Source of the DNA: a bacterium
GTDB taxonomy: Bacteria; Bacillota_I; Bacilli_A; RF39; UBA660
Length of the DNA stretch: 64,000 nucleotides
Assembly (NCBI GenBank): GCA_030524925.1
Contig: JAUNFS010000003.1
Span: forward strand, 2,146-66,145
Direction: 5' to 3'
Numbering within the stretch: position 1 is the stretch's first letter; every line of letters begins with the position of its first letter. Positions 15,195 through 29,870 of the stretch are shown here, in pieces. The position numbers and the translations under genes are program-made. The notes beneath the pieces were generated by a model. That model was not told where the DNA came from and ran no database searches. It saw only the letters and a program-made list of their open reading frames with translations.

Positions 15195-15303
15195 ATTTGT
15201 TTATATACGAACATTACTTATTATTTAGGTGGGTTCGCTACTTATAAATCATTAAAATAGTGTTCGTTAGAACATTATTTTTTTGTTTCTGGGAGGTTTT
15301 GTT

Positions 15304-15969: not shown

Positions 15970-16123
15970 AATTGGAAATGGAAATAAAATCAAAAATTCT
16001 AATGTAGGCAAAAATAACAAAATTGAAAGCGAACAAACACCAAATAAAATTTTAATAGATATTTTAGTTGGTCTATTCATAACAATAGTTGGTGGGATAA
16101 TTCTATATTTCATAACAAATTAA
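15959..16123 (+). CDS. 54-aa ORF: repeat continuation plus TM helix, probably the frameshifted C-terminus of the AbiTii-like gene
   Basis: Own translation: MKIKIGNGNKIKNSNVGKNNKIESEQTPNKILIDILVGLFITIVGGIILYFITN. Repeats the IGxxNKIxxSNVG unit of the upstream ORF in the next frame. Confidence 0.4.
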   Translation: MKIKIGNGNKIKNSNVGKNNKIESEQTPNKILIDILVGLFITIVGGIILYFITN

Positions 16124-16140
16124 AACGATTAGTTTGTTTT

Positions 16141-16383
16141 CTAATCGTTTTCTTTTTTTATTAAATCATCTAATGTAACACCTAAAGCAACAGATATTCT
16201 ATAAAAGGTATCAACAGAAAAGTTATAACCGGCTTTATCACTTTGAATTTGTCTTATAAAATCGTGAGATAAATCTACCATTTCAGCAAGTTGCATTGAT
16301 GTTATGTTTTTTTCTTTTCTATATTTTCTAATGTTCTTTCTAATGGTATCGTAGATGTTGGCATCAAAAATTAATTTTTCCAT
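16141..16383 (-). CDS. XRE-family helix-turn-helix transcriptional regulator
   Basis: KNITSMQLAEMVDLSHDFIRQIQS HTH. 80 aa. AGGAGG SD. Confidence 0.8.
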   Translation of the reverse strand: MEKLIFDANIYDTIRKNIRKYRKEKNITSMQLAEMVDLSHDFIRQIQSDKAGYNFSVDTFYRISVALGVTLDDLIKKEND

Positions 16384-16397
16384 AATGTTATCTACCT

Positions 16398-16440
16398 CCT
16401 AACATAATTTTAAAGAAATATATCCAAAAAATATGTTAGG
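16398..16440. promoter_or_regulatory. 9-bp inverted repeat (CCTAACATA / TATGTTAGG), candidate operator
   Basis: Left arm overlaps the SD of the XRE gene. Right arm abuts the -35 of the rightward promoter. Confidence 0.35.
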
Positions 16441-16442
16441 TA

Positions 16443-16471
16443 TTGACTAACAACGATGTATGTGATAAAAT
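16443..16471 (+). promoter_or_regulatory. candidate promoter for the 200-aa membrane protein gene
   Basis: TTGACT-N17-TAAAAT. Confidence 0.45.
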
Positions 16472-16506
16472 TAAGTTATCATTAATAATATGATTTTATA
16501 TATGTT

Positions 16507-17109
16507 GTGAGGTGTTTAAAGGTGAAAAAATTCGGTAATATACTAATTGATATTGTATTGGTACTAGCATTTATAATAACTTGTGCTGGTACATTTGCAG
16601 AAAAAAGTGTTGGTTTTGGTGTTGCCACGATAATTATTATTGTATTGTTTATTTTAAATCTTAAAAAAGGTAATCAAGTTGTAGATAGTAAAGAAGTAAA
16701 AGATTTAGATGCTAAATATACAAATAGCAGTTGGCAAAAAATTGGAAGTTATGAAAATGCTTATCTATATATCAACGAAAATGATAAGAAAGTATTAATT
16801 AACAATCACGAATACAATTTTAAAGATATAATTTCTGCCGAAATAATGGAAAATGAAAAAGAACAAACATATACTGCAACAACTCAAAATGCTATATTCA
16901 CAAGGTCTTATAGTAGTGGTTCAAGAACTTATCATTATTGCAGTAAATTACAAGTAAAAATCGTTCTAAATTCAATAACTAGTCCACAAGAATATATTAC
17001 TTTTATAAGTAAAAAGACAAATAAAAATAGTAATAAATATAAAAGTGCTTATGATATGGCACAAAAATTCATATCAACTTTGCAAGTTATTATTAAGAAT
17101 AACCAATAA
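16507..17109 (+). CDS. two-TM membrane protein with C-terminal globular domain (element cargo)
   Basis: Two TM helices, then a ~130-aa soluble domain. Alternative GTG start at 16522 after GAGGTG. No family recognised. Confidence 0.5.
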   Translation: MRCLKVKKFGNILIDIVLVLAFIITCAGTFAEKSVGFGVATIIIIVLFILNLKKGNQVVDSKEVKDLDAKYTNSSWQKIGSYENAYLYINENDKKVLINNHEYNFKDIISAEIMENEKEQTYTATTQNAIFTRSYSSGSRTYHYCSKLQVKIVLNSITSPQEYITFISKKTNKNSNKYKSAYDMAQKFISTLQVIIKNNQ

Positions 17110-17140
17110 ATTAAGTCGTAAAGGCTTAATTTTTTAATTC

Positions 17141-17350
17141 TTATATATAAATGAAAATATATTTATCACTATTGTATTTATTAAAAATATAATCTTGAAG
17201 ATTTGCAATATTATTAAACTTTTTCCCTTTTTCTTCATAATTACTTATTATATACAAATTATTATTTCTAATTATAATGAATACTCCGGGATGCTTTTTA
17301 TCTAAAACTTTACTTTCTATTTTTGATATTCTTCTTTCTAGTGTATTCAT
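17141..17350 (-). CDS. hypothetical small protein (element)
   Basis: 69 aa. ATGA overlap with the upstream HTH gene. Confidence 0.4.
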   Translation of the reverse strand: MNTLERRISKIESKVLDKKHPGVFIIIRNNNLYIISNYEEKGKKFNNIANLQDYIFNKYNSDKYIFIYI

Positions 17351-17730
17351 TTTATATCAAGCCTTTCTTCTATATTATCAATTCTTTTTAATAATTCTAA
17401 TTGTTGATACTGCAAAATTCTATCTAATATAAAAGTAGATGCCTTTAATTGATTATTTTCATTTTCTGCATTATCAAGTATTGATAACAAATTATTTAGA
17501 GCCTTATCGCCTAAAGTATGCAATTTTATTTCTATACTTTGCAAGGCTTGTATTCTTAAATCAATTAATAGTTGTTTGAATACTGGGTCAGTTCGCCATC
17601 TATAAATTGTGTTTTCATCAACTCCAATTTTAGAGGCAACTACTTTGTTATTATCGCCAATTAAAAGTAAAGATAAAGCAGTTTGCTGTTTATCATTTAA
17701 TTTTTTAAAATTCTCTACAAAATTAGTCAT
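17347..17730 (-). CDS. small HTH protein (terminase-small-subunit-like / phBC6A51-type)
   Basis: LLLIGDNNKVVASKIGVDENTIYRWRTDPVFKQLL, an HTH followed by a coiled-coil tail. Confidence 0.5.
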   Translation of the reverse strand: MTNFVENFKKLNDKQQTALSLLLIGDNNKVVASKIGVDENTIYRWRTDPVFKQLLIDLRIQALQSIEIKLHTLGDKALNNLLSILDNAENENNQLKASTFILDRILQYQQLELLKRIDNIEERLDIK

Positions 17731-17784
17731 TTTCTATCATATCCTTTCATTAGTGTATTATTTGTAGAAAATGTAGTTATTGTA

Positions 17785-19521
17785 TTACTTTGTAATAATT
17801 ACATTATCTACACTTTCTACATTTACTACATTCTTTTTAATAGGTATTTTGTAAAAGACTTTTTGTCTTTCACTTTTTCCAGTTAGTTCGTTTTTAACTG
17901 GGTTTGGTGTTGTATAATAACCGATGCCATCATATTTCTTCAATAATGGTTTTATGGGGTCTAACATTGAATTTTTAACTTTATTATCTGCGAGGTTAGA
18001 ATATAATTTTTGCAGTTCTATTCCTAACTCTTTTAAACTACCAGCCCATTTTCCATTATTCTTGTTTACTAAAGTTTTTATAGTATCAACTAAAGGGTTA
18101 TTATTATATTCTTCTAATTCATTTCGCATCACTTTTTCTTCATAAGATGAAATCATCTGCCATTTACAACTTTCTTTATTGAAGTTTAAAATATATTGAT
18201 TTTGGTCTACATCTCTACCAGTAATAGATAAAATAGTTTCTTTATCGTATCTATTTTGTTTATCTAAAACTATTGTTGTATCAGCAGTACCAGTTATACC
18301 ATTTGTTCCGGATACTTTTCCAAAAACATCATTGTCATTGCCTTTTTTAAGATGATGTATTAAAATAATTGCCAAGCCATTTTCATCAGCAAAATCTTTA
18401 ATAGTTCCAACTTCTTTATAATCATTTGCATAATTGTTTTTTCCATTATAATCACTTCTAATTTTTTGAAGTGTATCTATTACTATAACCTTAATATAAG
18501 GTTCTTTTTTTATAATGCTTTTAATCTCATTAATTAAGCCATTTTCTATATCATCACACCTAGTTGCATAAATAAAATTATCTGGTGCTATTTTGCCATC
18601 TAATACCTTATTTAATCTGCTTTTAAGCCTATGTTCGCTATCTTCTAGTGCTAGATATAAGCATCCAGTTTTAAGTGTCTTAAAGCCTAAGAATGGCATA
18701 CCTTTACTAATACTTAAACATAAATCTAAAGCCATCCAACTTTTTCCTATTTTAGGTAAACTGCAAATTAAAGTAAGTCCTTGAGGTATTAAACTATCTA
18801 CATAAAATGTTATTGGTGGTAAATCTTTATCTTGTAATGATTTGGCAGTTGCATATTGAATATTATTTATCTTATCTTTATTTTTAATTTTATTAGTTTC
18901 TTTTTTTAGAGCACTTTTAACAATATTATTTAATTCTGCTTTTTTTAGTTTATCTTCAAAAACAATATTATTAATTATATTTGCTACATCTTTAATATTC
19001 ATTTCCGGATATGTTTCTTTTATTAATAATAGATGCTTATATAAATGGTTGTTTCTAGCATCACCATCAAGCATTCCAGTTAAATTATTTTTTGCTTTAT
19101 ATAATGGATAAAATTGCAATGGTAGTTCTGGTAAATTATCAATATTTAATTCTCTATTCATTTCTCTAGTTTTGCCATTTAATTTAATGACTGCATAGGC
19201 ATTTTTCCCGGTTAAATAATCACATTGAAAGCCTAAAACAGATATTACATCTGTGTTTCTTTTAAAACTATATCCAGTAGGCATTTTATAGTAGTAATGC
19301 TTTCCTTTAGTTGTTTTAACTCTTAAGGTGGGATAGTTTGCATCTATATAATCACATATTATATTTTCATTTATATTGTCATTGTCAAAATCTAAAACAA
19401 TTACATCATCACCAATAATAAGACCAGCATTTTCTAAATTATCAAAAGTAGTTTGATAGTATTGTTGGTTCATTGATTTAATATTAGGTGATTTATCATT
19501 TTTTAGTGGTATAAATTGCAT
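17785..19521 (-). CDS. replication protein: N-terminal Prim-Pol domain fused to RepA/AAA_25-type P-loop ATPase
   Basis: VLDFDND (DxD) and TTKGKHYYYK in the N-domain. Walker A SLPKIGKS. CLYLALEDS. Walker B VIVIDTLQKI. Confidence 0.75.
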   Translation of the reverse strand: MQFIPLKNDKSPNIKSMNQQYYQTTFDNLENAGLIIGDDVIVLDFDNDNINENIICDYIDANYPTLRVKTTKGKHYYYKMPTGYSFKRNTDVISVLGFQCDYLTGKNAYAVIKLNGKTREMNRELNIDNLPELPLQFYPLYKAKNNLTGMLDGDARNNHLYKHLLLIKETYPEMNIKDVANIINNIVFEDKLKKAELNNIVKSALKKETNKIKNKDKINNIQYATAKSLQDKDLPPITFYVDSLIPQGLTLICSLPKIGKSWMALDLCLSISKGMPFLGFKTLKTGCLYLALEDSEHRLKSRLNKVLDGKIAPDNFIYATRCDDIENGLINEIKSIIKKEPYIKVIVIDTLQKIRSDYNGKNNYANDYKEVGTIKDFADENGLAIILIHHLKKGNDNDVFGKVSGTNGITGTADTTIVLDKQNRYDKETILSITGRDVDQNQYILNFNKESCKWQMISSYEEKVMRNELEEYNNNPLVDTIKTLVNKNNGKWAGSLKELGIELQKLYSNLADNKVKNSMLDPIKPLLKKYDGIGYYTTPNPVKNELTGKSERQKVFYKIPIKKNVVNVESVDNVIITK

Positions 19522-19687
19522 CTTTTTTTATCCTTTCTTCATTATTGATTTTTTTCTTCTTTTCATCCTTGCTGGAAAGCCATTTTTTATATTCTTCTTT
19601 GTGATTATCAATATAGGTTGTTACATCATCAACTAAAATGCCAGAGGCAAATTCTTTTATTAGTTCATCACTAATCATAATTTTCAC
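19496..19687 (-). CDS. hypothetical small protein (element)
   Basis: 63 aa, overlaps neighbours on both sides in an operon-like way. Confidence 0.35.
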   Translation of the reverse strand: MKIMISDELIKEFASGILVDDVTTYIDNHKEEYKKWLSSKDEKKKKINNEERIKKDAIYTTKK

Positions 19688-19868
19688 CTGCTTTAATTAA
19701 CTCTTTGGCTTTCTTTTCCCAGAAAGTGGCATTGTGTTTTTTTACTTTATCTGGGTTATTCTTTCGCCAGTTTTTAAAATATAATTTTCTGGCATCATCA
19801 ATTTGCTTAGTTGAATATTTGTTAATAGCATTACTAAATTGTTTTTCATCATTTTTATTATTATTCAT
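19671..19868 (-). CDS. hypothetical small basic protein (element)
   Basis: ATG at 19868 follows AAAGGAGG; the track start 19886 lies upstream of the SD. Confidence 0.4.
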   Translation of the reverse strand: MNNNKNDEKQFSNAINKYSTKQIDDARKLYFKNWRKNNPDKVKKHNATFWEKKAKELIKAGENYD

Positions 19869-19905
19869 ACAAGAGCCTCCTTTCAAATTTTTTTCTTTTA
19901 TTTTC

Positions 19906-19934
19906 TTGCATTTTTTTGAAAAATGATATATTAT
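19906..19934 (+). promoter_or_regulatory. candidate rightward promoter of the element switch region
   Basis: TTGCAT-N17-TATTAT. Confidence 0.4.
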
Positions 19935-19938
19935 ATAA

Positions 19939-19968
19939 ATGTAAAAGTTATTTCCTTTTCTTTTACAT
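19939..19968. promoter_or_regulatory. 9-bp inverted repeat ATGTAAAAG-N12-CTTTTACAT, candidate operator
   Basis: Perfect arms, located between the two face-to-face candidate promoters. Confidence 0.35.
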
Positions 19969-19988
19969 AAGTGAAGTTTAACACAGAA

Positions 19989-20016
19989 ATTATAGAAAAG
20001 GGATAAAAATATACAA
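19989..20016 (-). promoter_or_regulatory. candidate leftward promoter for the replication operon
   Basis: Minus strand TTGTAT-N16-TATAAT. Confidence 0.4.
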
Positions 20017-20070
20017 AAAAAAATATTTGTTAATTTTGATAAATAAATTTCACAAAAAGGAAGGATAATT

Positions 20071-20658
20071 ATGGAAAGAAAAGAGAGAGAAAAAAATCAT
20101 ATTGACCCAGAAGTTATTAAAGAAAATGTTAATAATACAAAATATACAAATGACATTAAGCAAATGTTATTGTGCTTTTCATTAGAACTTAATAGGTTGC
20201 TATATAAAAAAGAAATAAGTCAAGAAGATTTTTCTAAAATAACAAAAATAGGTCAAACAAGTATTTCTAAATATAGAAATGGTACTGCACTACCAAAACA
20301 AGAAAATATTGATATTATTGCAAAGGCTCTTGGAGTATCAAGTGAATATTTAGTTGGTAAAAGCAAAACAAAAGACTATTCATATAATCAATTAAATAAA
20401 TTATTTGGCTTTAATGATGAAACAATTAATAATCTTTCAAGTTGTTTTAACAAAGACTATCTAAATAATATGTTTGGTGGTGAATTAGATAGTATTAATT
20501 ACTTTCTTGAAAGACTAAAAAATTATGTTGATGCCAAAAATGAATATAAAAAAGAAAAAAAGGAATTAAACAAGGCTTGGGATAAAAATAAAATTGATGA
20601 GGCTAAATATTATTTAACAAATTCACTAATTGATTTAATAGATGAAAATTTAAAATAG
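20071..20658 (+). CDS. XRE-family HTH regulator (repressor-like) with C-terminal extension
   Basis: ISQEDFSKITKIGQTSISKYRNGTALPKQENIDIIAKALGVSSEYLVG. AGGAAGGA SD. Confidence 0.75.
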   Translation: MERKEREKNHIDPEVIKENVNNTKYTNDIKQMLLCFSLELNRLLYKKEISQEDFSKITKIGQTSISKYRNGTALPKQENIDIIAKALGVSSEYLVGKSKTKDYSYNQLNKLFGFNDETINNLSSCFNKDYLNNMFGGELDSINYFLERLKNYVDAKNEYKKEKKELNKAWDKNKIDEAKYYLTNSLIDLIDENLK

Positions 20659-20673
20659 AAAGGAGTTTATATT

Positions 20674-22218
20674 ATGAATATTGCACTTTATTTAAGATAT
20701 AGTTCACAAAATCAAACAGAGGCATCTATTGAGGGACAAAGAGAGGTTTGCCAAGAATATGCCAGAGTAAAAAAATATAATATTATATGCGAATATATTG
20801 ACAGAGCCCACTCGGCTACAACAGATAATCGCCCAGAATTCAAAAGAATGATTAAAGATAGTTCTAAAGGTTTATTTGATGCAGTAGTAGTTTATCAATT
20901 TGATAGATTTGCAAGAAATAGATTAGATAGTCAAAAATATAAACAACTTTTAAAGAAAAATAATGTAATGGTTTTATCTGCTCGTGAGGAAATACCAGAA
21001 GATGCTTCTGGTATACTTATGGAAAGTGTTTTAGAGGGGATGGCAGAATATTATAGTGTTGAGTTAGGACAAAAGGTTTCTCGTGGAATGAAAACAAATG
21101 CCAGTAAATGCTATTATAATGGTGGTTCAGTTCCTTTAGGTTTAAAACTAGAGGTTGTAGAAAAAATACAAACATCTGGTAAAATAAAAGAAAAAAAGAA
21201 ATTTGTTATTGATGAAGAAAAAGCCTCTATTATAAAAACTATATTTGAAAAATTTAACAAAGGCGAAAGTATGATTAAAATTATAAATTATCTAAATAAA
21301 TTAGGCATTAAAACAAGCAAAAATAAGCCATTTAATAAAAATAGTATGAGAAGAATATTAGAAAATAAAAAGTATATTGGTATCTATTCTTATGATGGTG
21401 TAGATACTCCAGATGCTATTCCAAGAATAATTAGTGATGATTTATTTTATAAAGTACAAGATAAACTTGGCAAATATAGATGTGCTCCCGGTAGACAAAA
21501 AGCCAGAACGGAATATCTTTTAACAACTAAATTATTCTGTGGTTATTGTGAAAATATGATGGTTGGTGTTGCCGGTACTTCTAAAAATGGTACATTGCAT
21601 AATTACTATACTTGTAAGGGCAGAAAAACTTGTGGATGCAAAAAAGCCAATATCAAGAAAATATACATTGAGGATATAGTTGTAGATATGGCAAGAGAGG
21701 TCTTGACAGATAAAGAAATACCTATTATTGCTAAAAATGTGGTTGAATATGCAGAAAGCCACGATAACAGCGATTTAAAATATTTGCAAGATAAATTAAA
21801 AAATTTAAACAAACAAAATGAAAGTTTAACTAATAGTTTGAAATATTGTGAAGTTGATGCTGTAAGAAAAACAATTATTGATGAAATGACAAAAATTGAA
21901 AATGAAAAAATAAATACTCTTGAGGCAATTAAAGAAGAAGAAAAAAATCATACTTATATTGAATATGACAAAGTAGTATATTTTCTAGAACAAATGAGAA
22001 AAGGCGATATAAACGATATGAGGTATAGACAAAGACTTATAAATTGCTTTATTAATAAGGTGTTCTTATGGGATGATAAAATTATTACTACTTTTAATAT
22101 TAAAAAAAGTGATATTTCTACTAAATTGCCTAATTTAAAAGACTTGGAGTGTTCGTTTGAAGTTTCAAATGGTGCACCATTGATAAATTTGTTCGGACTA
22201 TTCGGACTTTATATATAG
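20674..22218 (+). CDS. large serine recombinase (resolvase/invertase N-domain, recombinase domain, zinc ribbon, coiled coil)
   Basis: IALYLRYSSQNQ...IEGQ catalytic Ser region. VVVYQFDRFARN. CGYC...YYTCKGRKTCGC zinc ribbon. 514 aa. Confidence 0.9.
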   Translation: MNIALYLRYSSQNQTEASIEGQREVCQEYARVKKYNIICEYIDRAHSATTDNRPEFKRMIKDSSKGLFDAVVVYQFDRFARNRLDSQKYKQLLKKNNVMVLSAREEIPEDASGILMESVLEGMAEYYSVELGQKVSRGMKTNASKCYYNGGSVPLGLKLEVVEKIQTSGKIKEKKKFVIDEEKASIIKTIFEKFNKGESMIKIINYLNKLGIKTSKNKPFNKNSMRRILENKKYIGIYSYDGVDTPDAIPRIISDDLFYKVQDKLGKYRCAPGRQKARTEYLLTTKLFCGYCENMMVGVAGTSKNGTLHNYYTCKGRKTCGCKKANIKKIYIEDIVVDMAREVLTDKEIPIIAKNVVEYAESHDNSDLKYLQDKLKNLNKQNESLTNSLKYCEVDAVRKTIIDEMTKIENEKINTLEAIKEEEKNHTYIEYDKVVYFLEQMRKGDINDMRYRQRLINCFINKVFLWDDKIITTFNIKKSDISTKLPNLKDLECSFEVSNGAPLINLFGLFGLYI

Positions 22219-23061: not shown

Positions 23062-23394
23062 TTAATTACAGTTCCAAGGTTCTAAGACACAATCTTGGCA
23101 TTTTTGGAAATTACTTGCTGGCATTTCACGATAACCATTAATTGTACTAAATAACCACATAACGATTGTTGGTACAAAGAAAATTAATACACCGGCAATA
23201 GCACGATACATTAAACTCTTACTAGCCTTCTTAATGTCATCTTCTTTACCACCTACTACGGCTTTTCCTAAATCAAACATTCCATATCCAATAATTAATA
23301 ATGGAATAGCTATTTTAAATACTGTTAGTATCCAACCTACAAATCCTAAAACGTCTGCTGCTTGATCACAAAAACCAGTTATATTCATACTCAC
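23062..23394 (-). CDS. 110-aa two-TM protein, VirB2/TrbC-pilin-like topology, Cys-rich tail
   Basis: TM1 VLGFVGWILTVFKIAIPLLIIGYGMF. Basic loop DLGKAVVGGKEDDIKKASKSLMYR. TM2 AIAGVLIFFVPTIVMWLF. Tail FQKCQDCVLEPWNCN. Confidence 0.5.
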   Translation of the reverse strand: MSMNITGFCDQAADVLGFVGWILTVFKIAIPLLIIGYGMFDLGKAVVGGKEDDIKKASKSLMYRAIAGVLIFFVPTIVMWLFSTINGYREMPASNFQKCQDCVLEPWNCN

Positions 23395-23446
23395 ATCTCC
23401 CTTACATACTTAAATTCTATATGAATTTATGGTAATTGTCAACAAA

Positions 23447-24562
23447 TTATTTAAATATACCAAAAATTCTACTGCCTTCTTGTCTACTAAAACCTAGTTT
23501 TACAAGAAGTCTATCTACTGCTAACAATCTATCTGCCCTGTCGTTAATGACTGGCATGTTATAGAAGACTTTAAATTTTGTTTCATATTCAAAATTTGTT
23601 AGTTCTTCATCTTTGATAGCGCTTTGATTTAATATTATTTTTCCATCTTTGACTTTTTCACGTAAATTGTTATCTTTTTTTAAAGCTTTATTTAAACTAA
23701 TGATACCTGGATTAACTAAGTATAGTATATCCGTACATAGTTGTTTTTCTGGTAAATCATTTAAATCTATTAATACAATATCAATATTTCTAAGTGCATT
23801 TATTTTGAATCTTAATTCTTCTACTGATGTACAAAAAGAAATATCTTGATCATTAAAGTAGATAGAATCTTGTTTAAACATTTCAAAAGCAATTACTTTA
23901 TAATTGGCTTTCAATTGTTTTAACATCATGTGCATTAGAGTTGTTGCACCAGCATGGTCTGTGACATTTTGAAGACCAATGATTCTAGCTCTAACTTTAA
24001 TTTGTTCTTCTTCTCTAACATAGTCTACATTACTAAATACGTTAGGATTAGTAAATGCAGGTCTATATTCATCATTATTAAGATTTACATTACTATTTGG
24101 ATTAGCAATGTATGATTGATTACCAAAAGAATTTGGTGAAGCACTTACAGTTTGATTCATCATATTTTGATTTTGATAAGATGATTCACTTAAATACTTT
24201 TTAACATTATCTAATGTATTTGGATGATTTAATAAATAATTTATTCCAGCAGCATTTCTAGTAAAGTTATAATAACCGTTTTCAACTAAATATCTTAGAT
24301 AATTATTACTACTGACAAGTTCACTATCATTAAGAAGTATAATTACTTTTGATGCTGGAAAGAAACTTAAAAAGTTTAAAACCTCTTTAATATCAAAATA
24401 ATTCTTAATTGCTGTTATATCAATTATTGCTTTACTATATATAAAGTTAGATAACTGACTTTCTAGCATATCTCTAGTAAACTCACCACTTAAAGTTTTA
24501 ATGGTATCTAAATTAGCACTATCAATGATAATTCCATTAAGATTTTTTATTGCAATATACAT
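23447..24562 (-). CDS. TadZ/CpaE-like protein: receiver-like N-domain, Asn/Gln-rich linker, MinD/ParA-like domain with degenerate P-loop
   Basis: N-domain IIDITAIKN...KVIILLND...LVENGYYNF. Linker SYQNQNMMNQTVSASPNSFGNQSYIANPNSNVNLNN. IIGLQNVTDHAGATT replaces xKGGxGKT. VLIDLN is Walker-B-like. Confidence 0.5.
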   Translation of the reverse strand: MYIAIKNLNGIIIDSANLDTIKTLSGEFTRDMLESQLSNFIYSKAIIDITAIKNYFDIKEVLNFLSFFPASKVIILLNDSELVSSNNYLRYLVENGYYNFTRNAAGINYLLNHPNTLDNVKKYLSESSYQNQNMMNQTVSASPNSFGNQSYIANPNSNVNLNNDEYRPAFTNPNVFSNVDYVREEEQIKVRARIIGLQNVTDHAGATTLMHMMLKQLKANYKVIAFEMFKQDSIYFNDQDISFCTSVEELRFKINALRNIDIVLIDLNDLPEKQLCTDILYLVNPGIISLNKALKKDNNLREKVKDGKIILNQSAIKDEELTNFEYETKFKVFYNMPVINDRADRLLAVDRLLVKLGFSRQEGSRIFGIFK

Positions 24563-24570
24563 TTAATCAC

Positions 24571-25047
24571 CTAATTCCATCCTGGTACTTCATCTTTGGC
24601 AAAGTATATAGGTTTAGTTTCACCTGATATAGGAAATGTAAATATTTCACCTAATATTGGTAGATCTACTCTAAAAAAGACGGTTACTTTGTAATAACTT
24701 TTTTTGATATTACCACTATCGTCAACGGTTTTAGCAACGCAATATCTATATTTGGTTGCATCTGCGGCATAGGGATCAAACCCGCTTACAAGAGTGCCGT
24801 CACCTTGTTCAGTTAGATTTTTAGGACATTTGCTATATACTAAATAACCAACTGTTGATAAATAATCTTTAATTTCTTGTTGACTATCATCACTAAGTCC
24901 CTCTTTTTTTTCAATGATATTTACGATACCATTTTTAACCTTAAATGCCTTAGAGTAATTAATTGAAAGCGCTAAAAAGCTTGAAAATAAAACTATAAAA
25001 ACTAAAACAATTGTTAAAAGCCAAGTTCCACCAATTGCTTCTCTCAT
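24571..25047 (-). CDS. TadE-like pseudopilin candidate (158 aa)
   Basis: MREAIGG, hydrophobic TWLLTIVLVFIVLFSSFLAL, then SINYSKAFKVKNGIVN, which resembles the post-TM block of TadE-family proteins. Confidence 0.5.
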   Translation of the reverse strand: MREAIGGTWLLTIVLVFIVLFSSFLALSINYSKAFKVKNGIVNIIEKKEGLSDDSQQEIKDYLSTVGYLVYSKCPKNLTEQGDGTLVSGFDPYAADATKYRYCVAKTVDDSGNIKKSYYKVTVFFRVDLPILGEIFTFPISGETKPIYFAKDEVPGWN

Positions 25048-25062
25048 TTATATTATTGCTTT

Positions 25063-25311
25063 CTAATTAGTGTCCTTATTTGGGCATTGAACAGATTGTG
25101 GATTAGTGCAATTGTCATCTTGACAATAAAGGCAACTACACATTTTTGCTCCTGACGTACAATTACAACTAAAGGCTTGTGTACACTTTGTACTCCTTGT
25201 GATATTTGACTTAATTGATGGCCATATTAATGTAGTAAATACTACTCCTATTGCGGCGATTGCTACTACTGCTACTGCAGTCATACTTAATTCGCCTGAT
25301 GCTTCTTTCAT
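25063..25311 (-). CDS. 82-aa Flp/pilin-like protein with Cys-rich C-terminal module
   Basis: MKEASGE, then LSMTAVAVVAIAAIGVVFTTLIW, then 8 Cys in the last 40 residues. Strong SD TAGGAGGA. Own promoter. Confidence 0.55.
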   Translation of the reverse strand: MKEASGELSMTAVAVVAIAAIGVVFTTLIWPSIKSNITRSTKCTQAFSCNCTSGAKMCSCLYCQDDNCTNPQSVQCPNKDTN

Positions 25312-25372: not shown

Positions 25373-25404
25373 GTAAAAAAAAGATAACAATTTCTTGTTA
25401 TCTT
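25373..25404 (-). terminator. rho-independent terminator/attenuator after the 153-aa gene
   Basis: Perfect 10-bp stem AAGATAACAA/TTGTTATCTT with a 4-nt loop, followed on the minus strand by T8. The stop codon lies in the stem. Confidence 0.6.
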
Positions 25405-25859
25405 GAACTAATACCTGTACGATCTGGGAAGTATGTACTTGGCTTATTCTTACTATTATGGGCATCTTCTAAAATGCCATCAATTTTGTTTACTACAGCA
25501 TAATTTTCTTGGGTACTCTCAACGTTGAATGAGCCAGTCACGGTTGCTACTTTAACACTTACTTTTGGTGGTGCTTCATATATATCATAGAAAGATATTT
25601 TGTAGTTTTTATTAATATTTATGGTTTCTGAAAATCTTCTAATAAAGTTTTCTACAAATTTTTCTTTAATAATTCTTATTTCCCCGTACTTACGATAATG
25701 AGCTAAATCTAATGAATCTCCTAGAGCTGCATCTGTTATTTCTTTAATTAAATATACGTCTTGTTCGTTAGTGGTTGAATAGTTTTGTAAGATTAGCATT
25801 ATTCCTAGAATACCTAGTCCAAAAACTATAATCCAATATCCCCATACACTTTCTTTCAT
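25398..25859 (-). CDS. pseudopilin-like protein (153 aa)
   Basis: MKESVWG, hydrophobic YWIIVFGLGILGIMLIL, then a soluble domain. AGGAGGTG SD. Confidence 0.5.
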   Translation of the reverse strand: MKESVWGYWIIVFGLGILGIMLILQNYSTTNEQDVYLIKEITDAALGDSLDLAHYRKYGEIRIIKEKFVENFIRRFSETININKNYKISFYDIYEAPPKVSVKVATVTGSFNVESTQENYAVVNKIDGILEDAHNSKNKPSTYFPDRTGISSR

Positions 25860-25874
25860 TTACTTTTGCACCTC

Positions 25875-28800
25875 CTATGGATAGATAATACTATCATCGT
25901 CAATATTTACGTCTGGATAGCCGTCTGGCAATAACTGTCTCATTGTACCTACTTTAAATTGATTATCGCTAGCAAAATAGTATTTGTACTTTTGTCTACC
26001 AGATGTATTACTTGCATATCTTGTAACAAAGCTACTTATACATTCTTTGCCATCACTGTTACAGCTAAATAAGCCGCCTGAATAGCCACTGCTCCAGTCA
26101 TAGTAGTTACTATTCTTATTATATTTCTTGATTTCTTGCATTGTTTTAGTATCTAAATTAAATACATATTCAAGAGTTTCGGAATCTGGTGTATCGTCAA
26201 ACATTCCGTCTTTTAAACCAATTTGCTTGATTCGGCTTTCAGCTGCCTCGCCTTTGGCATTTGACCAGTTATCACCTAAATCTCCACTATCTTTACGATT
26301 ATTTGGATCCATGTTGCTAGGATTTATAGTTCTATAAATGTATTCTGGATAGAAATCTTCGCTTTCTCTTCCATCGCAATCAGGTCCTTGACAGCACTCC
26401 GCTCCAAAACAACAAGTAGGACAATCACGGTCGTATAGCACCTCTCTATTACAATATACACATAAACTTTCAAATACGTTTCCTTCTGCTAATTTTTGAT
26501 TTATACGATATTGTACATTAGATTCATTTTTACTTTTACCCTTAGGCTCTATTTCTAAGTGGCCATTATTTTCAATTGTAAACCAAGTTCTATATTTACC
26601 TTGATAATTTGTTATTTGTACATTAAATACATAACCTATTTCTAAAACATCAGGATAACTATAACTTTGCTGGTCAGTAATATATAAACCGCTTGGTACT
26701 AAGCTATAGTAGCCAACTGTTGGTTTATAGTATAGGTCAGCTTTACCAGTTTTTTCACTGTCAGCTTCTCCTCTATCTGTTTCCTCAACATTTTCATAAG
26801 CTGTGTTATAACCTTTTGAATAATCATTTGCTCCTAATTTTCCATAAAGAGGGCCTTCATGCTTACCGCTTGTATCTTTGTAATTTACATTTGTACTATT
26901 TGTTGTTGCTCCAGATGTATTTGGAAGTGTACTTACATGTGTCCAATATTTGCCATCTGATTCTACAGATTTAACAAACTCTACTTCTTGCTCTACAACT
27001 TTAGTATTACCACTTACTGAATCGTAGTATTGTTGCGTATATGTAAATGATAGATCAGGATCTAAAATATATTTCCATGAATTTTTAAAATTACTATTAG
27101 CTTTTTGACAAGAAGTCTTTTTTTCTTCTAGGCCTTGACGTTTTTCGTATGCTTTAACATATGCGTTATGAGCACCTACAACATTTGTTGATGGTTTTGG
27201 TGACACGGCGCAAATTTGTGATGTTGTCCATGAAACAGTTTCTTTTCCTCTTACTCCACTATTGTAAACACCATAATAATAATCATCTTGGGTTCTACCT
27301 GTATATGTAATATATTTTTCTTGTGACCAGCCTAAGCAATGATTATCTTCAGGGTCACGACCACCAGAACAATACCAACAACTGGAATTCATTGGGTGAC
27401 TTGCAGAATCATCTATTGCATCTTGCAGATTAGCTTCTTTTTGCCATGCATCAAATTTTGCCTTTTCATCTCTTACAGCAGCAAGATAATCTCTTTGCCA
27501 TACGTCGTAAGCTGTATAGAAGAAGGCAGTGATTTCACCTTTAACTTCTGGCTGAGAATATTGTCCATCGGAGTCTTTAGTAAATACGAAGAATCTACCA
27601 CTTGTAGATGCAGTTGTCATTGGGTAAATCATGTGATTATTCTCTGTTGTATAAAGTTTGCAATATTCGTTTGTTTCAATATTATTATTGTTATTGAATG
27701 TTTTATCACGCCAGTATTGCATTGCATTTTTTGTATAGTTTTGAAAGCTATCTAAAGTTGCTTGATTATTCATAACTTTATCTTCATATTTTTTTAATTT
27801 GCTCAATAATCCATCACGATTTACTTGTTCTACAGATGAATCTGATGGCATTTGGTTTACTGTTGAGCCATCTGACGCACATTCGCCTTGACAATCCATT
27901 ATTAAATTAACATGGTCTTGATCTTTGCATTGTTCATTATAAATTTCTTCTTGAGATTTTGAAAGATTGAAATTTTCAAGTCCTTCACAACATCCTGCGT
28001 TAATGTATTCTTCTATAGTTGCGTTTTTATTCCCTAATTTTAATTGGCCATTTTCATATTTACATACATTTGGTAGAGTGATGTCTAAGTCAAATGTTAG
28101 TTTGTGATGCATGCTGTCTAAGTAGCCAACCATTCTTTGGTTTGATTCATTTGGGCTTTCTACTAATAAGCCTACGCCTGATGCTCCAAATGGGAAGAAA
28201 TATTTATAGTCAATTTCAACTGTTATTTTAGGATTTGAAGCTATTTCTTCATAACTTCCGTATACTTCTAGTTCAAATGTATCATCGCCATTTAACAAGT
28301 CTGTTCCTTCAGAAATGTTTGCTTTGCACTCACCTTTTGAACAGCTTACTTTTTCAAAGGTTATTTCTGGGTTTAGATATGCAAGGCCATAACTTGAGAT
28401 TGCATTTTTAATATCCTCAATACCTTCAACTTTTACTTTTACTTTTTTATGGTAGCCGTATGATGAACCAGGAACATCTTCTGGAGTTCCGTCTACGACA
28501 AATTCTATATTATAATCTTTGGTTTCTGCTGTATAAATTCCTCCGTAGCCACTTAAAAATGTTCTACAGAAAGCACTTGAGCCACCTGCTAGTTTACCAG
28601 CACAGTAGATTGCTTGAGATGCTTGGTAGTTTTGGTCAGTCTTAAGTGTTGGAAATTTAGGATATTTAGGTTCTAAACCTTCAAAAGCGTTAGCTCCATT
28701 AATATATTTTTCAATGCTTTCCCATTCAGCTCCACCACTTTTGCCATAACCTAGGCCGGCATTAAAAAATCTTACTGCGGTATTGATATCAATATAATCT

Positions 28801-29156
28801 ACAGAATTTTTTTCTGCCAAATAGATTTGATGCATCTTTATAAGTCCAGCATCATAACCACCATTATCAACTGATAACTCTTTACCATAATATAATGTTT
28901 TAGGAGTGTTTCTGTTTGGGTCAATACAATATAAGTCAACTTCAGTGCCTTCAATTGTTGTTTTGTGATGCCAGCTAGTTGTTGTATATCCATCAGTAAA
29001 TACATAACCAGTAGTTTCTGTTGGGTTATCTGTAAGAGGAGTTTCTAATAAACAGTAGCCATTAGCTGCTGAAGGTCTGCCATCACATATACCATTTGAG
29101 GCATCAACATTTATAGTTACAAATAAAAGAGATATTAATAATAGATACTTCTTCAT
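25875..29156 (-). CDS. 1093-aa secreted Cys-rich protein, N-terminal thioester-domain-like region, no cell-wall sorting signal
   Basis: Signal peptide MKKYLLLISLLFVTINVDAS. LYCIDPNRNTP...NSVDYIDINTAVRFF parallels the adhesin motif at 12089-12223. About 29 Cys, including CPTCCFGAECCQGPDC. C-terminus lacks LPxTG and a TM. Confidence 0.6.
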   Translation of the reverse strand: MKKYLLLISLLFVTINVDASNGICDGRPSAANGYCLLETPLTDNPTETTGYVFTDGYTTTSWHHKTTIEGTEVDLYCIDPNRNTPKTLYYGKELSVDNGGYDAGLIKMHQIYLAEKNSVDYIDINTAVRFFNAGLGYGKSGGAEWESIEKYINGANAFEGLEPKYPKFPTLKTDQNYQASQAIYCAGKLAGGSSAFCRTFLSGYGGIYTAETKDYNIEFVVDGTPEDVPGSSYGYHKKVKVKVEGIEDIKNAISSYGLAYLNPEITFEKVSCSKGECKANISEGTDLLNGDDTFELEVYGSYEEIASNPKITVEIDYKYFFPFGASGVGLLVESPNESNQRMVGYLDSMHHKLTFDLDITLPNVCKYENGQLKLGNKNATIEEYINAGCCEGLENFNLSKSQEEIYNEQCKDQDHVNLIMDCQGECASDGSTVNQMPSDSSVEQVNRDGLLSKLKKYEDKVMNNQATLDSFQNYTKNAMQYWRDKTFNNNNNIETNEYCKLYTTENNHMIYPMTTASTSGRFFVFTKDSDGQYSQPEVKGEITAFFYTAYDVWQRDYLAAVRDEKAKFDAWQKEANLQDAIDDSASHPMNSSCWYCSGGRDPEDNHCLGWSQEKYITYTGRTQDDYYYGVYNSGVRGKETVSWTTSQICAVSPKPSTNVVGAHNAYVKAYEKRQGLEEKKTSCQKANSNFKNSWKYILDPDLSFTYTQQYYDSVSGNTKVVEQEVEFVKSVESDGKYWTHVSTLPNTSGATTNSTNVNYKDTSGKHEGPLYGKLGANDYSKGYNTAYENVEETDRGEADSEKTGKADLYYKPTVGYYSLVPSGLYITDQQSYSYPDVLEIGYVFNVQITNYQGKYRTWFTIENNGHLEIEPKGKSKNESNVQYRINQKLAEGNVFESLCVYCNREVLYDRDCPTCCFGAECCQGPDCDGRESEDFYPEYIYRTINPSNMDPNNRKDSGDLGDNWSNAKGEAAESRIKQIGLKDGMFDDTPDSETLEYVFNLDTKTMQEIKKYNKNSNYYDWSSGYSGGLFSCNSDGKECISSFVTRYASNTSGRQKYKYYFASDNQFKVGTMRQLLPDGYPDVNIDDDSIIYP

Positions 29157-29854
29157 TATAATACACGCTTCTTTCTATAAATTATCACACCTACTACACC
29201 ACCAGCTATTAAAACTGTTCCCCCAATTATGTATAGATAATTTTCTTTTAAGAACTTTAAAAACTTATTTTCTTTAGTTGGATCAGCATCGCCGTCTTTG
29301 CCATTTTCTATCTCTGTTATTTTATTTACTATTTGAGTAATATCCATGTCTACTTCTTTAGTAACAAAAGTTTGACAGTATGGTAAGTCTTCATGCCCTT
29401 TACATACTAAATATTCTGAATAAGGATTATATTTTGGTTTAGTAAATGAAAAACTTCTTAATCTTTTTCTACCGCAATTTTCAGTGCTTGAATATACAAT
29501 AATGTCATAAGATATGATATTATCTTGATCTTCTGATGTTATTGTATATTTACCATTTTCAGTATCACTGTAATATATTGATTTTTTTTCTTTGGTTTTA
29601 GAGTCAGTTACTTCTAATGATAAATTTTCAGTTATATTATAAAAAGATATAATAAAGTTATAACTTATTTGCTCGTACTCGCCACCGCCTTCACTAGTAA
29701 CTTTATTTTTGATTTCTTTTAATTCATAATTTGCTTGTACTAGTGCTGCTTCTTTATTTAGATTTGCTTGTTCTTTGTATGAACATTCAGCGGCATAAAC
29801 GTTAACATAAAAAAACAATAAAGGTATTAATATTTTAAAATATTTCACATCCAT
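29156..29854 (-). CDS. signal-peptide protein with C-terminal TM anchor (about 230 aa)
   Basis: KYFKILIPLLFFYVNVYA-AEC signal. C-terminal YIIGGTVLIAGGVVGVIIYRKKRVL. Start is ambiguous (ATG 29854 or GTG 29848 after AGGTGA). Stop overlaps the next start (ATGA). Confidence 0.55.
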   Translation of the reverse strand: MDVKYFKILIPLLFFYVNVYAAECSYKEQANLNKEAALVQANYELKEIKNKVTSEGGGEYEQISYNFIISFYNITENLSLEVTDSKTKEKKSIYYSDTENGKYTITSEDQDNIISYDIIVYSSTENCGRKRLRSFSFTKPKYNPYSEYLVCKGHEDLPYCQTFVTKEVDMDITQIVNKITEIENGKDGDADPTKENKFLKFLKENYLYIIGGTVLIAGGVVGVIIYRKKRVL

Positions 29855-29870
29855 CACCTATCCTATGACA

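What the first reader, a model, noticed from the sequence alone, without database searches (positions are those of the whole stretch)
25875..29156. 1093-aa secreted giant: thioester-domain-like N-terminus with the Gln replaced by Asn, plus dense Cys clusters and no anchor
The N-terminal region LYC(77)IDPNRNTP...NSVDYIDIN(125)TAVRFF parallels the bona fide thioester pattern of the sortase-anchored adhesin in this window, IYC(62)EEANKKFP...NSTVDYYIMQ(106)TAVWWF. The Cys is retained (codon 28926-28928). The thioester-forming Gln is Asn (codon 28782-28784) and the Trp pair is RF. That suggests a paralogous but chemically altered adhesin head. By my count the protein has about 29 Cys, including the knot CVYCNREVLYDRDCPTCCFGAECCQGPDCDG (about 26360-26470). 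There is no LPxTG or TM, so it must be retained by partner proteins, as a pilus tip adhesin would be.
Basis: partly seen in the sequence, partly recalled or inferred. Interest (0 to 1): 0.6.

Follow-up and report, generated by a model that had tools for sequence, protein, structure and literature searches.

The report
Thioester-headed adhesin of Tad-like pilus operon

Summary
The ORF (25875-29156, minus strand) is real: 1093 aa, Sec signal peptide, 29 Cys, no LPxTG and no membrane helix. It belongs to a large unnamed family (183 representatives at 50% identity) with no Pfam, NCBIfam or PHROG match.

AlphaFold models of residues 21-362 (pLDDT 89.7) match only the class II TED of E. faecium TIE86 (6FWY; Foldseek E 5e-7, prob 1.00, TM 0.44-0.51). 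Sequence alone does not show it (BLASTP E 1.1).

N125 sits at the Gln position of the auxiliary TQxxΦW motif, which is not bond-forming (PMC6194298). The likely bond-forming Gln is Q340 (NQRMV; family consensus YQRM). C77 is Cys in 69 of 69 family domains and Q340 is Gln in 66 of 67. Profile alignment places them on Cys68 and Gln256 of TIEpLS20.

The gene order (membrane partner, giant protein, DUF5411, T2SSE ATPase, pilin-like proteins, T4SS_pilin) is conserved down to 20% identity and parallels pLS20 genes from 34 onward.

Best reading: an unanchored covalent adhesin displayed by a Tad-like machine. This scan has reached the same reading in at least eight other genomes.

The parts
25875..29156 (-). 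ORF of the 1093-aa secreted Cys-rich protein (P0001), stop codon included
   Evidence: There are 177 close and 183 representative homologues of similar length.
29097..29156 (-). Sec-type signal peptide, residues 1-20 (MKKYLLLISLLFVTINVDAS)
   Evidence: Read from the sequence. It is the only hydrophobic segment in the protein and is modelled with low pLDDT.
28071..29096 (-). Class II thioester-domain-like head, residues 21-362: an N-terminal strands-plus-helices lobe, a β-sandwich and a closing β-hairpin
   Evidence: AF2 domain model pLDDT 89.7, pTM 0.87. Foldseek against PDB finds only 6fwy_A/C as significant (E 5.2e-7, prob 1.00, TMt 0.51). The full-length model gives the same hit.
28926..28928 (-). 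C77 in LYCID ([YFL]CΦζ motif): candidate thioester cysteine
   Evidence: Cys in 69 of 69 N-terminal domains of family representatives; D79 in 68 of 69. It aligns with the TED Cys of a 29-sequence TED profile and with Cys68 of TIEpLS20.
28770..28784 (-). N125-T-A-V-R129 on the second helix: counterpart of the auxiliary TQxxΦW motif, with Gln replaced by Asn and Trp by Arg
   Evidence: hhalign puts N/R on the Q/W of the TED profile. R129 is Arg in 69 of 69; N125 is variable. The motif is not bond-forming and is described as not essential for bond formation (PMC6194298).
28137..28139 (-). Q340 in NQRMV (family consensus YQRM, a ΦQζΦΦ-type motif): candidate thioester glutamine, just before the β-hairpin of residues 342-358
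   Evidence: Gln in 66 of 67 and invariant in the 49-sequence alignment A2. It aligns with Q245 of the RefSeq TIEpLS20 ORF, which is Gln256 in the paper's numbering (SSYQRLM), in both local and global hhalign. Secondary structure.
27837..28070 (-). Cys-rich linker, residues 363-440, with family-invariant C365, C389, C390 and C410 and nearly invariant C422
   Evidence: moderate pLDDT.
27078..27509 (-). Two long helices (550-585 and 659-693) flanking a hypervariable β-rich insert (about 586-658; 27183-27401)
   Evidence: DSSP of the model. Mean pairwise identity is 0.31-0.45 in the insert against 0.9 or more in the flanks among 31 close relatives. Mosaic pattern: P0019 is 95% identical in the head but 40% here.
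25878..26708 (-). Most conserved part of the family, residues 817-1093. It includes CxxC...CxxC (26412-26462) and a tail ending in Φ-Pro (IYP)
   Evidence: 56-57% identity between clades against 21-25% for the head. Low pLDDT. About 75 of some 135 long family members end in WP, LP, TP, CP, YP, NP or IP.
29156..29857 (-). 233-aa partner with a signal peptide and a C-terminal membrane helix. Its stop overlaps the start of the giant gene
   Evidence: A gene of 233-245 aa lies directly upstream of every homologue examined. No Pfam family.
25398..25859 (-). DUF5411 protein (153 aa) with an N-terminal pilin-like leader and membrane helix
   Evidence: PF17424, E 1.4e-54. A DUF5411 gene lies downstream of the giant gene in all loci seen. 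It is directly adjacent in four of them and follows a second paralogue pair in L034. pLS20 has a counterpart (E 1.4e-5).
23062..25311 (-). Rest of the operon: 82-aa pilin-like protein, 158-aa pseudopilin-like protein, 371-aa protein and 110-aa T4SS_pilin-like protein
   Evidence: The reading of the 371-aa protein as TadZ-like comes from my inspection of the sequence and from earlier scan notes; I did not test it.

Best explanation
The protein is an unanchored, secreted adhesin.

Head. Residues 21-362 form a diverged class II thioester domain. C77 (LYCID) and Q340 (NQRMV) probably form the self-generated Cys-Gln thioester, which can react with an amine on a target and bond covalently to it.

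Body. The head sits on a new cysteine-rich body. This contains a helical hairpin bearing a strain-variable insert, followed by a strongly conserved C-terminal module that ends in a hydrophobic residue plus proline.

Display. The protein is exported by Sec. It is probably held on the cell by products of its own operon: the co-translated 233-aa membrane partner and/or the pilin-like proteins (DUF5411, 82 aa, 158 aa). The machine would be a Tad-like one (RcpC/CpaB, T2SSE ATPase, two polytopic proteins), whose genes have moved to another contig in this genome. The conserved C-terminal module would be the docking end and the thioester head the distal end.

Shown: the fold match, the conservation of C77 and Q340, the motif register, the synteny, and the absence of an anchor.

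Inferred: that the thioester bond exists, that the protein is displayed on a filament or at its tip, and the nature of the target.
For: Fold:
- Both AF2 models hit only the EfmTIE86 TED.
- The domain model is confident.
- The topology matches what the class II paper describes: Cys at the end of a strand, the auxiliary motif on the second helix, and the Gln on a hairpin after a β-sandwich.

Residues:
- C77 is Cys in 69 of 69 domains and Q340 is Gln in 66 of 67. 64 of the 65 domains that cover both positions have Cys and Gln.

Register:
- hhalign of the family profile against TIEpLS20 residues 1-330 gives E 2e-4 and score 36.4. The reversed sequence scores 12.2 and the best of 30 shuffles scores 21.4.
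- C77 falls on Cys68 and Q340 on Gln256.

Context:
- The order partner, giant, DUF5411, RcpC-like, T2SSE ATPase, two membrane proteins, small pilin-like proteins, T4SS_pilin-like is kept down to 20% identity of the giant.
- The missing motor genes are on C27 of the same genome, 87-94% identical to those of the 1112-aa clade. RcpC scores above Pfam's cut-off. An A24 prepilin peptidase is on C18.
- pLS20 has TIE, DUF5411-like, T2SSE ATPase (34% identical, E 1e-43) and T4SS_pilin in the same order.
- TIEpLS20 also lacks a sorting signal, is found in the cell-wall fraction as surface foci (PMC11730352), and needs Cys68 for function (PMC8092201).

Gradient of conservation: head 21-25%, C-terminal module 56-57%, DUF5411 77%, motor 87-94%.
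Against: - No sequence method finds a TED. Pfam TED and TED_2 do not match at E up to 1, family profiles find nothing in PDB sequences, and hhalign probabilities are only 27-47%.
- The TM-score of 0.44-0.51 with rmsd 7.4 Å is borderline. Only one TED entry (6FWY) is hit; BaTIE, SaTIE and the class I TEDs are not.
- I could not read model coordinates, so the closeness of C77 and Q340 in space was not checked.
- The TQxxΦW Gln and Trp are replaced by Asn and Arg.
- In the local hhalign against the 29-sequence TED profile the third motif was not in register. Only the global run placed Q340 on the TED Gln.
- Display on a filament is inferred from gene order only.
- The C-terminal module is modelled with low confidence.
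Confidence: 0.55

Rival explanations
1. It has the same thioester head, but it works as a mating or cell-to-cell aggregation adhesin of a pLS20-like type IV secretion (conjugation-type) apparatus. On this reading the T2SSE ATPase is a VirB11, the small proteins are T4SS parts, and there is no host-directed pilus adhesin.
For: The operon is colinear with pLS20 genes from 34 onward, which lie in a conjugation operon upstream of VirD4. The pLS20 literature calls the ATPase virB11. The last gene of the operon is T4SS_pilin-like. The genome carries VirB4-like and VirD4-like genes at C6:890-10233. TIEpLS20 is needed for conjugation in liquid.
Against: RcpC/CpaB scores above Pfam's cut-off, there are pilin-like leaders with a prepilin peptidase in the genome, and the 371-aa protein looks TadZ-like; these are Tad traits. 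No PF03432 relaxase was found in an 85%-complete genome. The locus lies among core genes (FtsW, rsgA, rpe, prkC) in the same place in distant relatives, so it is not on a mobile element. The VirB4 and VirD4 genes are on another contig.
Confidence: 0.25
2. It keeps a TED-like fold but forms no thioester. The head is a non-covalent binding or structural domain, and C77 has another role, such as a disulfide or metal site in this Cys-rich protein.
For: The auxiliary Gln/Trp motif is lost (N125, R129). TED HMMs do not match. The fold match is only moderate. The bond itself is untested.
Against: C77 and Q340 are kept together in 64 of 65 divergent domains, while the rest of the head drifts to about 20% identity. 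No second Cys of the head is conserved to the same degree that could pair with C77 (C24 44 and C35 51 of 72 aligned domains). The Gln/Trp motif is reported as dispensable for bond formation.
Confidence: 0.12
3. One reading: a chemically altered head in which Asn125 takes the place of the thioester Gln, giving no bond or an alternative Cys-Asn cross-link.
For: N125 is invariant in the nearer clades and lies on the helix next to the predicted bond site.
Against: That position corresponds to the TQxxΦW Gln, which is not bond-forming. Across the family it is N, D, Q, E or another residue. The adhesin used for comparison has its own later Gln (Q251 in SSHQYVLL), 189 residues after C62, at the class II spacing.
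Confidence: 0.03
4. It is a secreted enzyme or toxin that uses C77 as a catalytic nucleophile, for example a papain- or transglutaminase-like hydrolase, rather than an adhesin.
For: It has an invariant Cys with a nearby invariant Asp (D79) and Arg (R129), it is secreted, and it has no anchor.
Against: No protease or transglutaminase fold appears in the Foldseek lists. There is no conserved His in the head. The conserved synteny is with pilus-type genes.
Confidence: 0.05

Closest known systems
TIEpLS20 (gene 34) and the genes after it in the conjugation operon of Bacillus subtilis plasmid pLS20 (NC_015148; PMC8092201)
   Same: Both have a class II-type TED head with YCID(P) and YQR[LM] motifs in the same register. 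Both have a signal peptide and no LPxTG or membrane anchor. Both are followed by a DUF5411-like protein, a T2SSE ATPase (34% identical to the ATPase on C27 of this genome), two membrane proteins, small pilin-like proteins and a T4SS_pilin.
   Different: TIEpLS20 is 767-778 aa with predicted CnaB-type stalk domains and a single Cys. This protein has a 730-aa Cys-rich body with no CnaB domains. The whole proteins are not detectably similar by BLASTP (E 0.15). pLS20 is a plasmid with relaxase and VirD4 in the same operon, whereas this is a chromosomal locus among core genes. The upstream 233-aa partner, RcpC and the 371-aa protein had no detectable counterpart among the pLS20 genes I compared (BLASTP against the genes between 6124 and 16861; Pfam scan of ten of them).
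Class II thioester domains of TIE adhesins: EfmTIE86 (6FWY), BaTIE (6FWV), SaTIE (PMC6194298)
   Same: The fold matches 6FWY. There is a [YFL]CΦζ Cys and a later ΦQζΦΦ Gln after a β-sandwich. The domain is at the N-terminus after a signal peptide.
   Different: TM is only 0.44-0.51. TQxxΦW is replaced by NxxΦR. The Cys-to-Gln spacing is 263 residues against 171-204. There are no isopeptide stalk domains and no sortase signal. Pfam TED models do not match.
PilC/PilY1 (and MshQ) tip adhesins of type IVa pili; CpaL/TadG of Tad pili (PMC13533445)
   Same: This is a resemblance of working principle only. These are proteins of roughly 1000-1200 aa with a Sec signal and no anchor, encoded beside minor pilins, with a variable distal part, a conserved proximal part and a conserved extreme C-terminus.
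   Different: There is no sequence or fold match. No β-propeller or vWA domain was detected. The β-strand-addition docking was not tested here. CpaL has its own pilin-like N-terminus, which this protein lacks.
The window's own sortase-anchored 614-aa TED-SpaA adhesin (10562-12406, minus strand)
   Same: Both have TED-type heads, and the Cys and helix motifs are colinear.
   Different: The adhesin is a standard TIE protein. It is homologous to BaTIE (E 2.4e-15), has SpaA/CnaB-type domains, a VPKTG sorting signal and a neighbouring sortase. It is not significantly similar in sequence to the giant protein (E 1.1).

Membership tests
Thioester domain (TED), class II | Bond-forming Cys in a [YFL]CΦζ motif | tested here: met
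   LYC77ID. Cys in 69 of 69 family domains. Aligned with the TED Cys.
Thioester domain (TED), class II | Bond-forming Gln in a weak ΦQζΦΦ motif, contributed by a β-hairpin after the β-sandwich | tested here: met
   Q340 in NQRMV (family consensus YQRM). Gln in 66 of 67. It lies just before the hairpin 342-358 and aligns with Gln256 of TIEpLS20. Met at the level of sequence and topology; closeness in space was not measured.
Thioester domain (TED), class II | TED fold: head lobe plus inserted β-sandwich | tested here: met
   Foldseek hit to 6fwy_A with E 5.2e-7, prob 1.00, TMt 0.51, over the whole target. Moderate TM, and only one TED entry was hit.
Thioester domain (TED), class II | TQxxΦW motif on helix α2 | tested here: not met
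   The motif reads INTAVR, with Asn for Gln and Arg for Trp. The source paper says these residues are not essential for bond formation.
Thioester domain (TED), class II | Match to the curated family models (Pfam PF08341 TED, PF20610 TED_2) | tested here: not met
   No Pfam family at E up to 1. The genome-wide PF08341 search finds only the 614-aa adhesin.
Thioester domain (TED), class II | An actual Cys-Gln thioester bond (17 Da mass loss; continuous density) | not testable with these tools
   This needs mass spectrometry or a solved structure.
TIE proteins (sortase-anchored thioester-isopeptide-ester adhesins) | Stalk of isopeptide or ester domains and a C-terminal LPXTG sorting signal | tested here: not met
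   No CnaB or SpaA domains. No C-terminal LPxTG or membrane helix.
pLS20-type module (TED adhesin, DUF5411, T2SSE ATPase, T4SS_pilin) | The same families in the same gene order | tested here: met
   In this genome the ATPase block lies on another contig.
pLS20-type module (TED adhesin, DUF5411, T2SSE ATPase, T4SS_pilin) | Part of a conjugative element (relaxase, VirD4 and VirB4 in the same operon) | tested here: not met
   There are none in the window. VirB4-like and VirD4-like genes lie on contig C6. No PF03432 relaxase was found; the genome is 85% complete.
PilC/PilY1 tip adhesins | C-terminal β-propeller domain, and a terminal β-strand that completes a PilK-type minor pilin | tested here: not met
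   No PilY1 family or propeller fold was found, so the propeller criterion is not met. The β-strand docking could not be modelled because no multimer prediction was available. Only the conserved Φ-Pro end is seen.
Tad (type IVc) pilus system (context of the gene) | CpaF/TadA ATPase, TadB/C platform, RcpC/CpaB, Flp-type pilin with prepilin peptidase | tested here: inconclusive
   T2SSE ATPase and RcpC are above Pfam's cut-off, and an A24 peptidase is present. The two polytopic proteins match no T2SSF model. The pilin-like leaders are atypical (earlier notes).

The most novel reading that the evidence does not exclude
A covalent (thioester) adhesin is mounted on a Tad-type filament of a wall-bearing, small-genome gut bacterium without sortase. 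It would be plugged in by its conserved C-terminal module and Φ-Pro tail onto a DUF5411-type pseudopilin, much as PilC/PilY1 is held by β-strand addition. A strain-variable insert on a helical hairpin would serve to evade host antibodies or phages. This would be a new way to display thioester domains, and it would suggest that the related pLS20 genes also build a short adhesin-bearing filament in Gram-positive conjugation.
Probability: 0.3. Interest if true: 0.75.

Novelty: new variant of a known kind. Interest (0 to 1): 0.55.

Why it matters
Thioester domains are known as the tips of sortase-built pili and of wall-anchored TIE adhesins. The one studied exception without a sorting signal is TIEpLS20.

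This family places a probable thioester head on a new cysteine-rich body. It ties that protein to a Tad-like gene set in the chromosomes of uncultured small-genome gut Bacilli, labelled 'uncultured Tenericutes' or 'uncultured Bacilli' in the records.

If the bond and the display are confirmed, three things follow:
- It would explain how such adhesins are held on a cell without sortase.
- It would give a candidate for how these abundant, uncultured gut bacteria attach.
- It would offer a testable model for the unexplained genes after tie in pLS20-type conjugation operons. The Gram-positive conjugation literature states that no pilus-like structure is known (PMC11730352).

The family has no name or model in Pfam, NCBIfam or PHROGs, so it is missed by routine annotation.

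Tried and rejected
- Mobile-element idea. Early on I suspected the giant gene belonged to the adjacent serine-recombinase, primase-helicase and repressor element, and that the many contigs of about 19 kb pointed to a plasmid or phage. I rejected this. The flanks (FtsW, metallophosphoesterase, CAAX protease) are the same in distant relatives that lack that element. tblastn of the protein finds nothing in the phage or plasmid collections.
- Paralogy with the second giant protein on C27 (1115 aa, repeats, membrane anchor): no similarity.
- Sequence routes to a TED all failed or were weak: Pfam and NCBIfam, family profiles against PDB sequences, and hhalign of the family against the single adhesin.
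- A profile search with the 49-sequence alignment returned almost only close relatives.
- tblastn against plasmids with the DUF5411 protein, the T4SS_pilin-like protein and the adhesin's TED region found nothing. The pLS20 link appeared only by reading the annotated record and using Pfam and hhalign.
- The viral structure library (BFVD) gave no match for the full model, and no PDB fold was found for residues 363-1093.
- The internal LPNTSG at residues 744-749 is not a sorting signal. It is not conserved and no membrane helix follows it.


Full report
**The object.** The minus-strand ORF 25875-29156 encodes 1093 residues. It has a typical Sec signal peptide, 29 cysteines, no hydrophobic segment after residue 30 and no C-terminal sorting signal. 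Pfam, NCBIfam and PHROGs give no family. The protein is nonetheless far from an orphan. 177 proteins match at E ≤ 1e-3 in the 90%-clustered collection. A profile search of 1.84 billion representatives finds 183 clusters at 50% identity, nearly all 950-1300 aa long and unnamed. The records that carry names are 'uncultured Tenericutes', 'uncultured Bacilli' or 'Mollicutes bacterium' MAGs from gut and digester samples. The window's genome is 905 kb at 85% completeness.

**The claimed similarity to the 614-aa adhesin.** hhalign of a 49-sequence family profile against the adhesin alone gives 13% probability. A genome-wide search with the Pfam TED model finds only the adhesin.

**Fold.** I modelled the full protein with a 33-sequence alignment (mean pLDDT 71.7; residues 30-360 mostly 80-94; residues 817-1093 mostly below 50). 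I also modelled residues 21-362 alone (pLDDT 89.7, pTM 0.87). In Foldseek searches of the PDB, both models have one significant match only, the class II thioester domain of E. faecium TIE86 (6FWY). The full model gives E 6.9e-6 and the domain model gives E 5.2e-7, prob 1.00, TMq 0.44, TMt 0.51, covering the whole target. Everything else in the lists is a weak Ig-like match to the β-sandwich lobe. The match is moderate (rmsd 7.4 Å; BaTIE, SaTIE and the class I TEDs are not listed).

**Which residues matter.** The paper on class II TEDs (PMC6194298) names three motifs:
- the bond-forming Cys, in [YFL]CΦζ;
- the bond-forming Gln, in a weak ΦQζΦΦ motif 171-204 residues later (BaTIE C71+Q266, SaTIE C296+Q467, EfmTIE86 C88+Q292), supplied by a β-hairpin of the inserted β-sandwich;
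- a third motif, TQxxΦW on helix α2. [quoted passage not shown]

The profile alignment puts N125 on the Q and R129 on the W of a TED profile that I built from 29 TED proteins of related genomes. In the model they lie on the second helix. The adhesin's own candidate bond-forming Gln is Q251 (SSHQYVLL), 189 residues after C62. 'Gln replaced by Asn' is therefore true of the auxiliary motif, not of the bond.

**The likely real pair.** In a 49-sequence alignment that reaches 19% identity, only 15 columns are invariant. They include C77, R129 and Q340. In an HMM alignment of 72 N-terminal domains from the 50%-identity representatives:
- C77 is Cys in 69 of 69;
- D79 is Asp in 68 of 69;
- R129 is Arg in 69 of 69;
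- Q340 is Gln in 66 of 67. In the one exception a Gln lies a few residues away in the sequence, so it may be a misalignment;
- N125 is N 31, D 13, Q 10, E 7, with a few others.

Q340 stands in NQRMV (family consensus YQRM, which fits ΦQζΦΦ). It comes directly before the β-hairpin 342-358 that closes the domain after the β-sandwich. TIEpLS20 of plasmid pLS20 is a class II TED adhesin in which Cys68 is required for function and Gln256 was assigned as the partner (PMC8092201). It reads VYCIDPD at the Cys and SSYQRLM at that Gln. hhalign of the family profile against TIEpLS20 1-330 places C77 on Cys68 and Q340 on Gln256 in both local and global modes. The local run gives E 2e-4 and score 36.4, against 12.2 for the reversed sequence and at most 21.4 in 30 shuffles. 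I could not read model coordinates, so the spatial closeness of C77 and Q340 is inferred, not measured. The bond itself can only be shown by mass spectrometry or a structure.

**The rest of the protein.** After the head come, in order:
- a Cys-rich linker with invariant C365, C389, C390 and C410;
- a mixed helical and β region;
- two long helices (550-585 and 659-693) flanking a β-rich insert;
- a β region;
- residues 817-1093, the best-conserved part of the family, which is modelled with low confidence.

Among 31 close relatives the insert (about 581-680) drops to 0.31-0.52 mean pairwise identity, while the flanks stay near 0.9. Relatives with a 95%-identical head can be only 40% identical there. 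This is a mosaic pattern, suggesting recombination or diversifying selection. Between clades the gradient runs the other way: head 21-25%, C-terminal module 56-57%. The CCFGAECCQGPDC stretch is a variable insert. The family commonly ends in a hydrophobic residue plus Pro (WP, LP, TP, CP, YP and similar). No PDB or viral structure matches residues 363-1093.

**Context.** The giant gene is translationally coupled to an upstream 233-aa gene whose product has a signal peptide and a C-terminal membrane helix. It is followed by DUF5411 (E 1.4e-54), an 82-aa and a 158-aa protein with pilin-like leaders, a 371-aa protein, and a T4SS_pilin-like 110-aa protein. The recombinase, primase-helicase and repressor genes next door form a separate insertion, absent from the same locus in relatives.

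In the 1112-aa clade, and in a relative only 20% identical (P0270), the order is: partner, giant, DUF5411, RcpC-like, T2SSE ATPase, two polytopic proteins. In P0270 this is followed by small pilin-like proteins, a roughly 350-aa protein and a roughly 114-aa protein. One relative carries two partner-giant pairs in tandem. In the window's genome the RcpC, ATPase and two membrane-protein genes lie on contig C27. They are 87-94% identical to those of the 1112-aa clade, although the giant proteins are only 36% identical. RcpC scores above Pfam's cut-off. A prepilin peptidase gene lies on C18. So this genome does not lack the motor; the motor genes have been relocated.

**Closest known system.** A lead from earlier notes of this scan sent me to the pLS20 record (NC_015148). 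There the thioester-domain protein (gene 34, TIEpLS20) is followed by:
- small proteins, including one that matches DUF5411 (E 1.4e-5);
- a T2SSE ATPase that RefSeq calls tadA and the pLS20 papers call virB11 (34% identical to the C27 ATPase, E 1.2e-43);
- two membrane proteins;
- small pilin-like proteins;
- a T4SS_pilin (above Pfam's cut-off);
- later, VirD4.

TIEpLS20 also lacks a sorting signal. It is reported in the cell-wall fraction as surface foci. The window's operon is thus a chromosomal relative of this module, with a different and much larger body on the adhesin, an added membrane partner, and RcpC. The own genome also has VirB4-like and VirD4-like genes at the start of contig C6, but no PF03432 relaxase was found. 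I found no paper in the library that links a thioester domain with type IV or Tad pili.

**How it most likely works.**
- Shown: a secreted, unanchored protein with a TED-like head, whose candidate Cys-Gln pair is the most conserved feature of the head, encoded at a fixed place in a Tad-like/pLS20-like operon.
- Inferred: the thioester forms autocatalytically and bonds to an amine on a target. The conserved C-terminal module and tail dock the protein onto operon products, either the membrane partner or the pilin-like proteins, so that the head points outwards. The hypervariable insert is exposed and under pressure to vary.
- By analogy: the parallel with PilC/PilY1, whose last residues complete a minor pilin's β-sheet (PMC13533445), is an analogy of principle only. 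I could not test it.
- Main rival: the machine is a conjugation-type apparatus and the adhesin serves cell-to-cell contact, as in pLS20.

**Verdict.** The family is a new variant of a known kind (TIEpLS20-like class II thioester adhesins). This scan has already reached the same reading on other DNA at least eight times. That repeats the idea but is not independent evidence for it.

Noticed in passing
window 10562-12406 (-): The sortase-anchored 614-aa adhesin is a standard class II TIE protein (BaTIE 6FWV, E 2.4e-15). It has C62, the TQxxΦW-type motif at Q106, and a probable bond-forming Gln at Q251 (SSHQYVLL). It ends in VPKTG plus a membrane helix.
   Followed up: partly
G000:C27:16428-22028 (own genome, outside the window): Directly upstream of the relocated RcpC/ATPase block lies a second set of surface genes. 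It comprises a 1115-aa Cys-rich protein with C-terminal repeats and a membrane anchor (32 Cys, unrelated to the giant protein), Cys-rich proteins of 205 and 394 aa with membrane anchors, and a second 148-aa protein whose two-helix layout resembles the window's T4SS_pilin-like protein (judged by eye; no family search was run).
   Followed up: partly
G000:C6:39-10233 (own genome): A block of T4SS-type genes sits at a contig start: a VirB4-like gene (596 aa), a 697-aa secreted protein, and a VirD4-like gene (786 aa). Core genes follow. No PF03432 relaxase was found in the genome.
   Followed up: partly
L002 13354-14529; L001 13360-14535: In the 1112-aa clade the DUF5411 protein is 391 aa long and carries a weak Peptidase_C39_2 match in the precomputed Pfam hits for that gene. 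This is a possible fusion of the pseudopilin-like protein with a cysteine peptidase domain.
   Followed up: no
L034 5725-14027: One relative carries two partner-plus-giant pairs in tandem (245 aa + 1126 aa, then 242 aa + 1018 aa) before DUF5411. They may be interchangeable adhesins.
   Followed up: no
L033 8719-9174: In the most distant relative examined, a thioredoxin-family gene lies between the CAAX protease gene and the operon. This fits a need for disulfide handling of these Cys-rich proteins.
   Followed up: no
window 15283-22218: An inserted element lies next to the operon: AbiTii-like gene, Prim-Pol/AAA_25 primase-helicase, HTH repressor and large serine recombinase. It is absent from the same locus in relative L004.
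   Followed up: partly
window 26925-26942 (residues 744-749): There is an internal LPNTSG in the variable β region of the giant protein. It is not conserved in other clades and no membrane helix follows, so it is probably not a sortase signal.
   Followed up: partly
G000:C15:1663-4290: After the motor block, here and in L002, come a membrane-associated P-loop protein (500 aa) and a partner with a weak DUF2357 match (seen in L002's precomputed Pfam hits). They look like a McrBC-type restriction pair rather than pilus parts.
   Followed up: no
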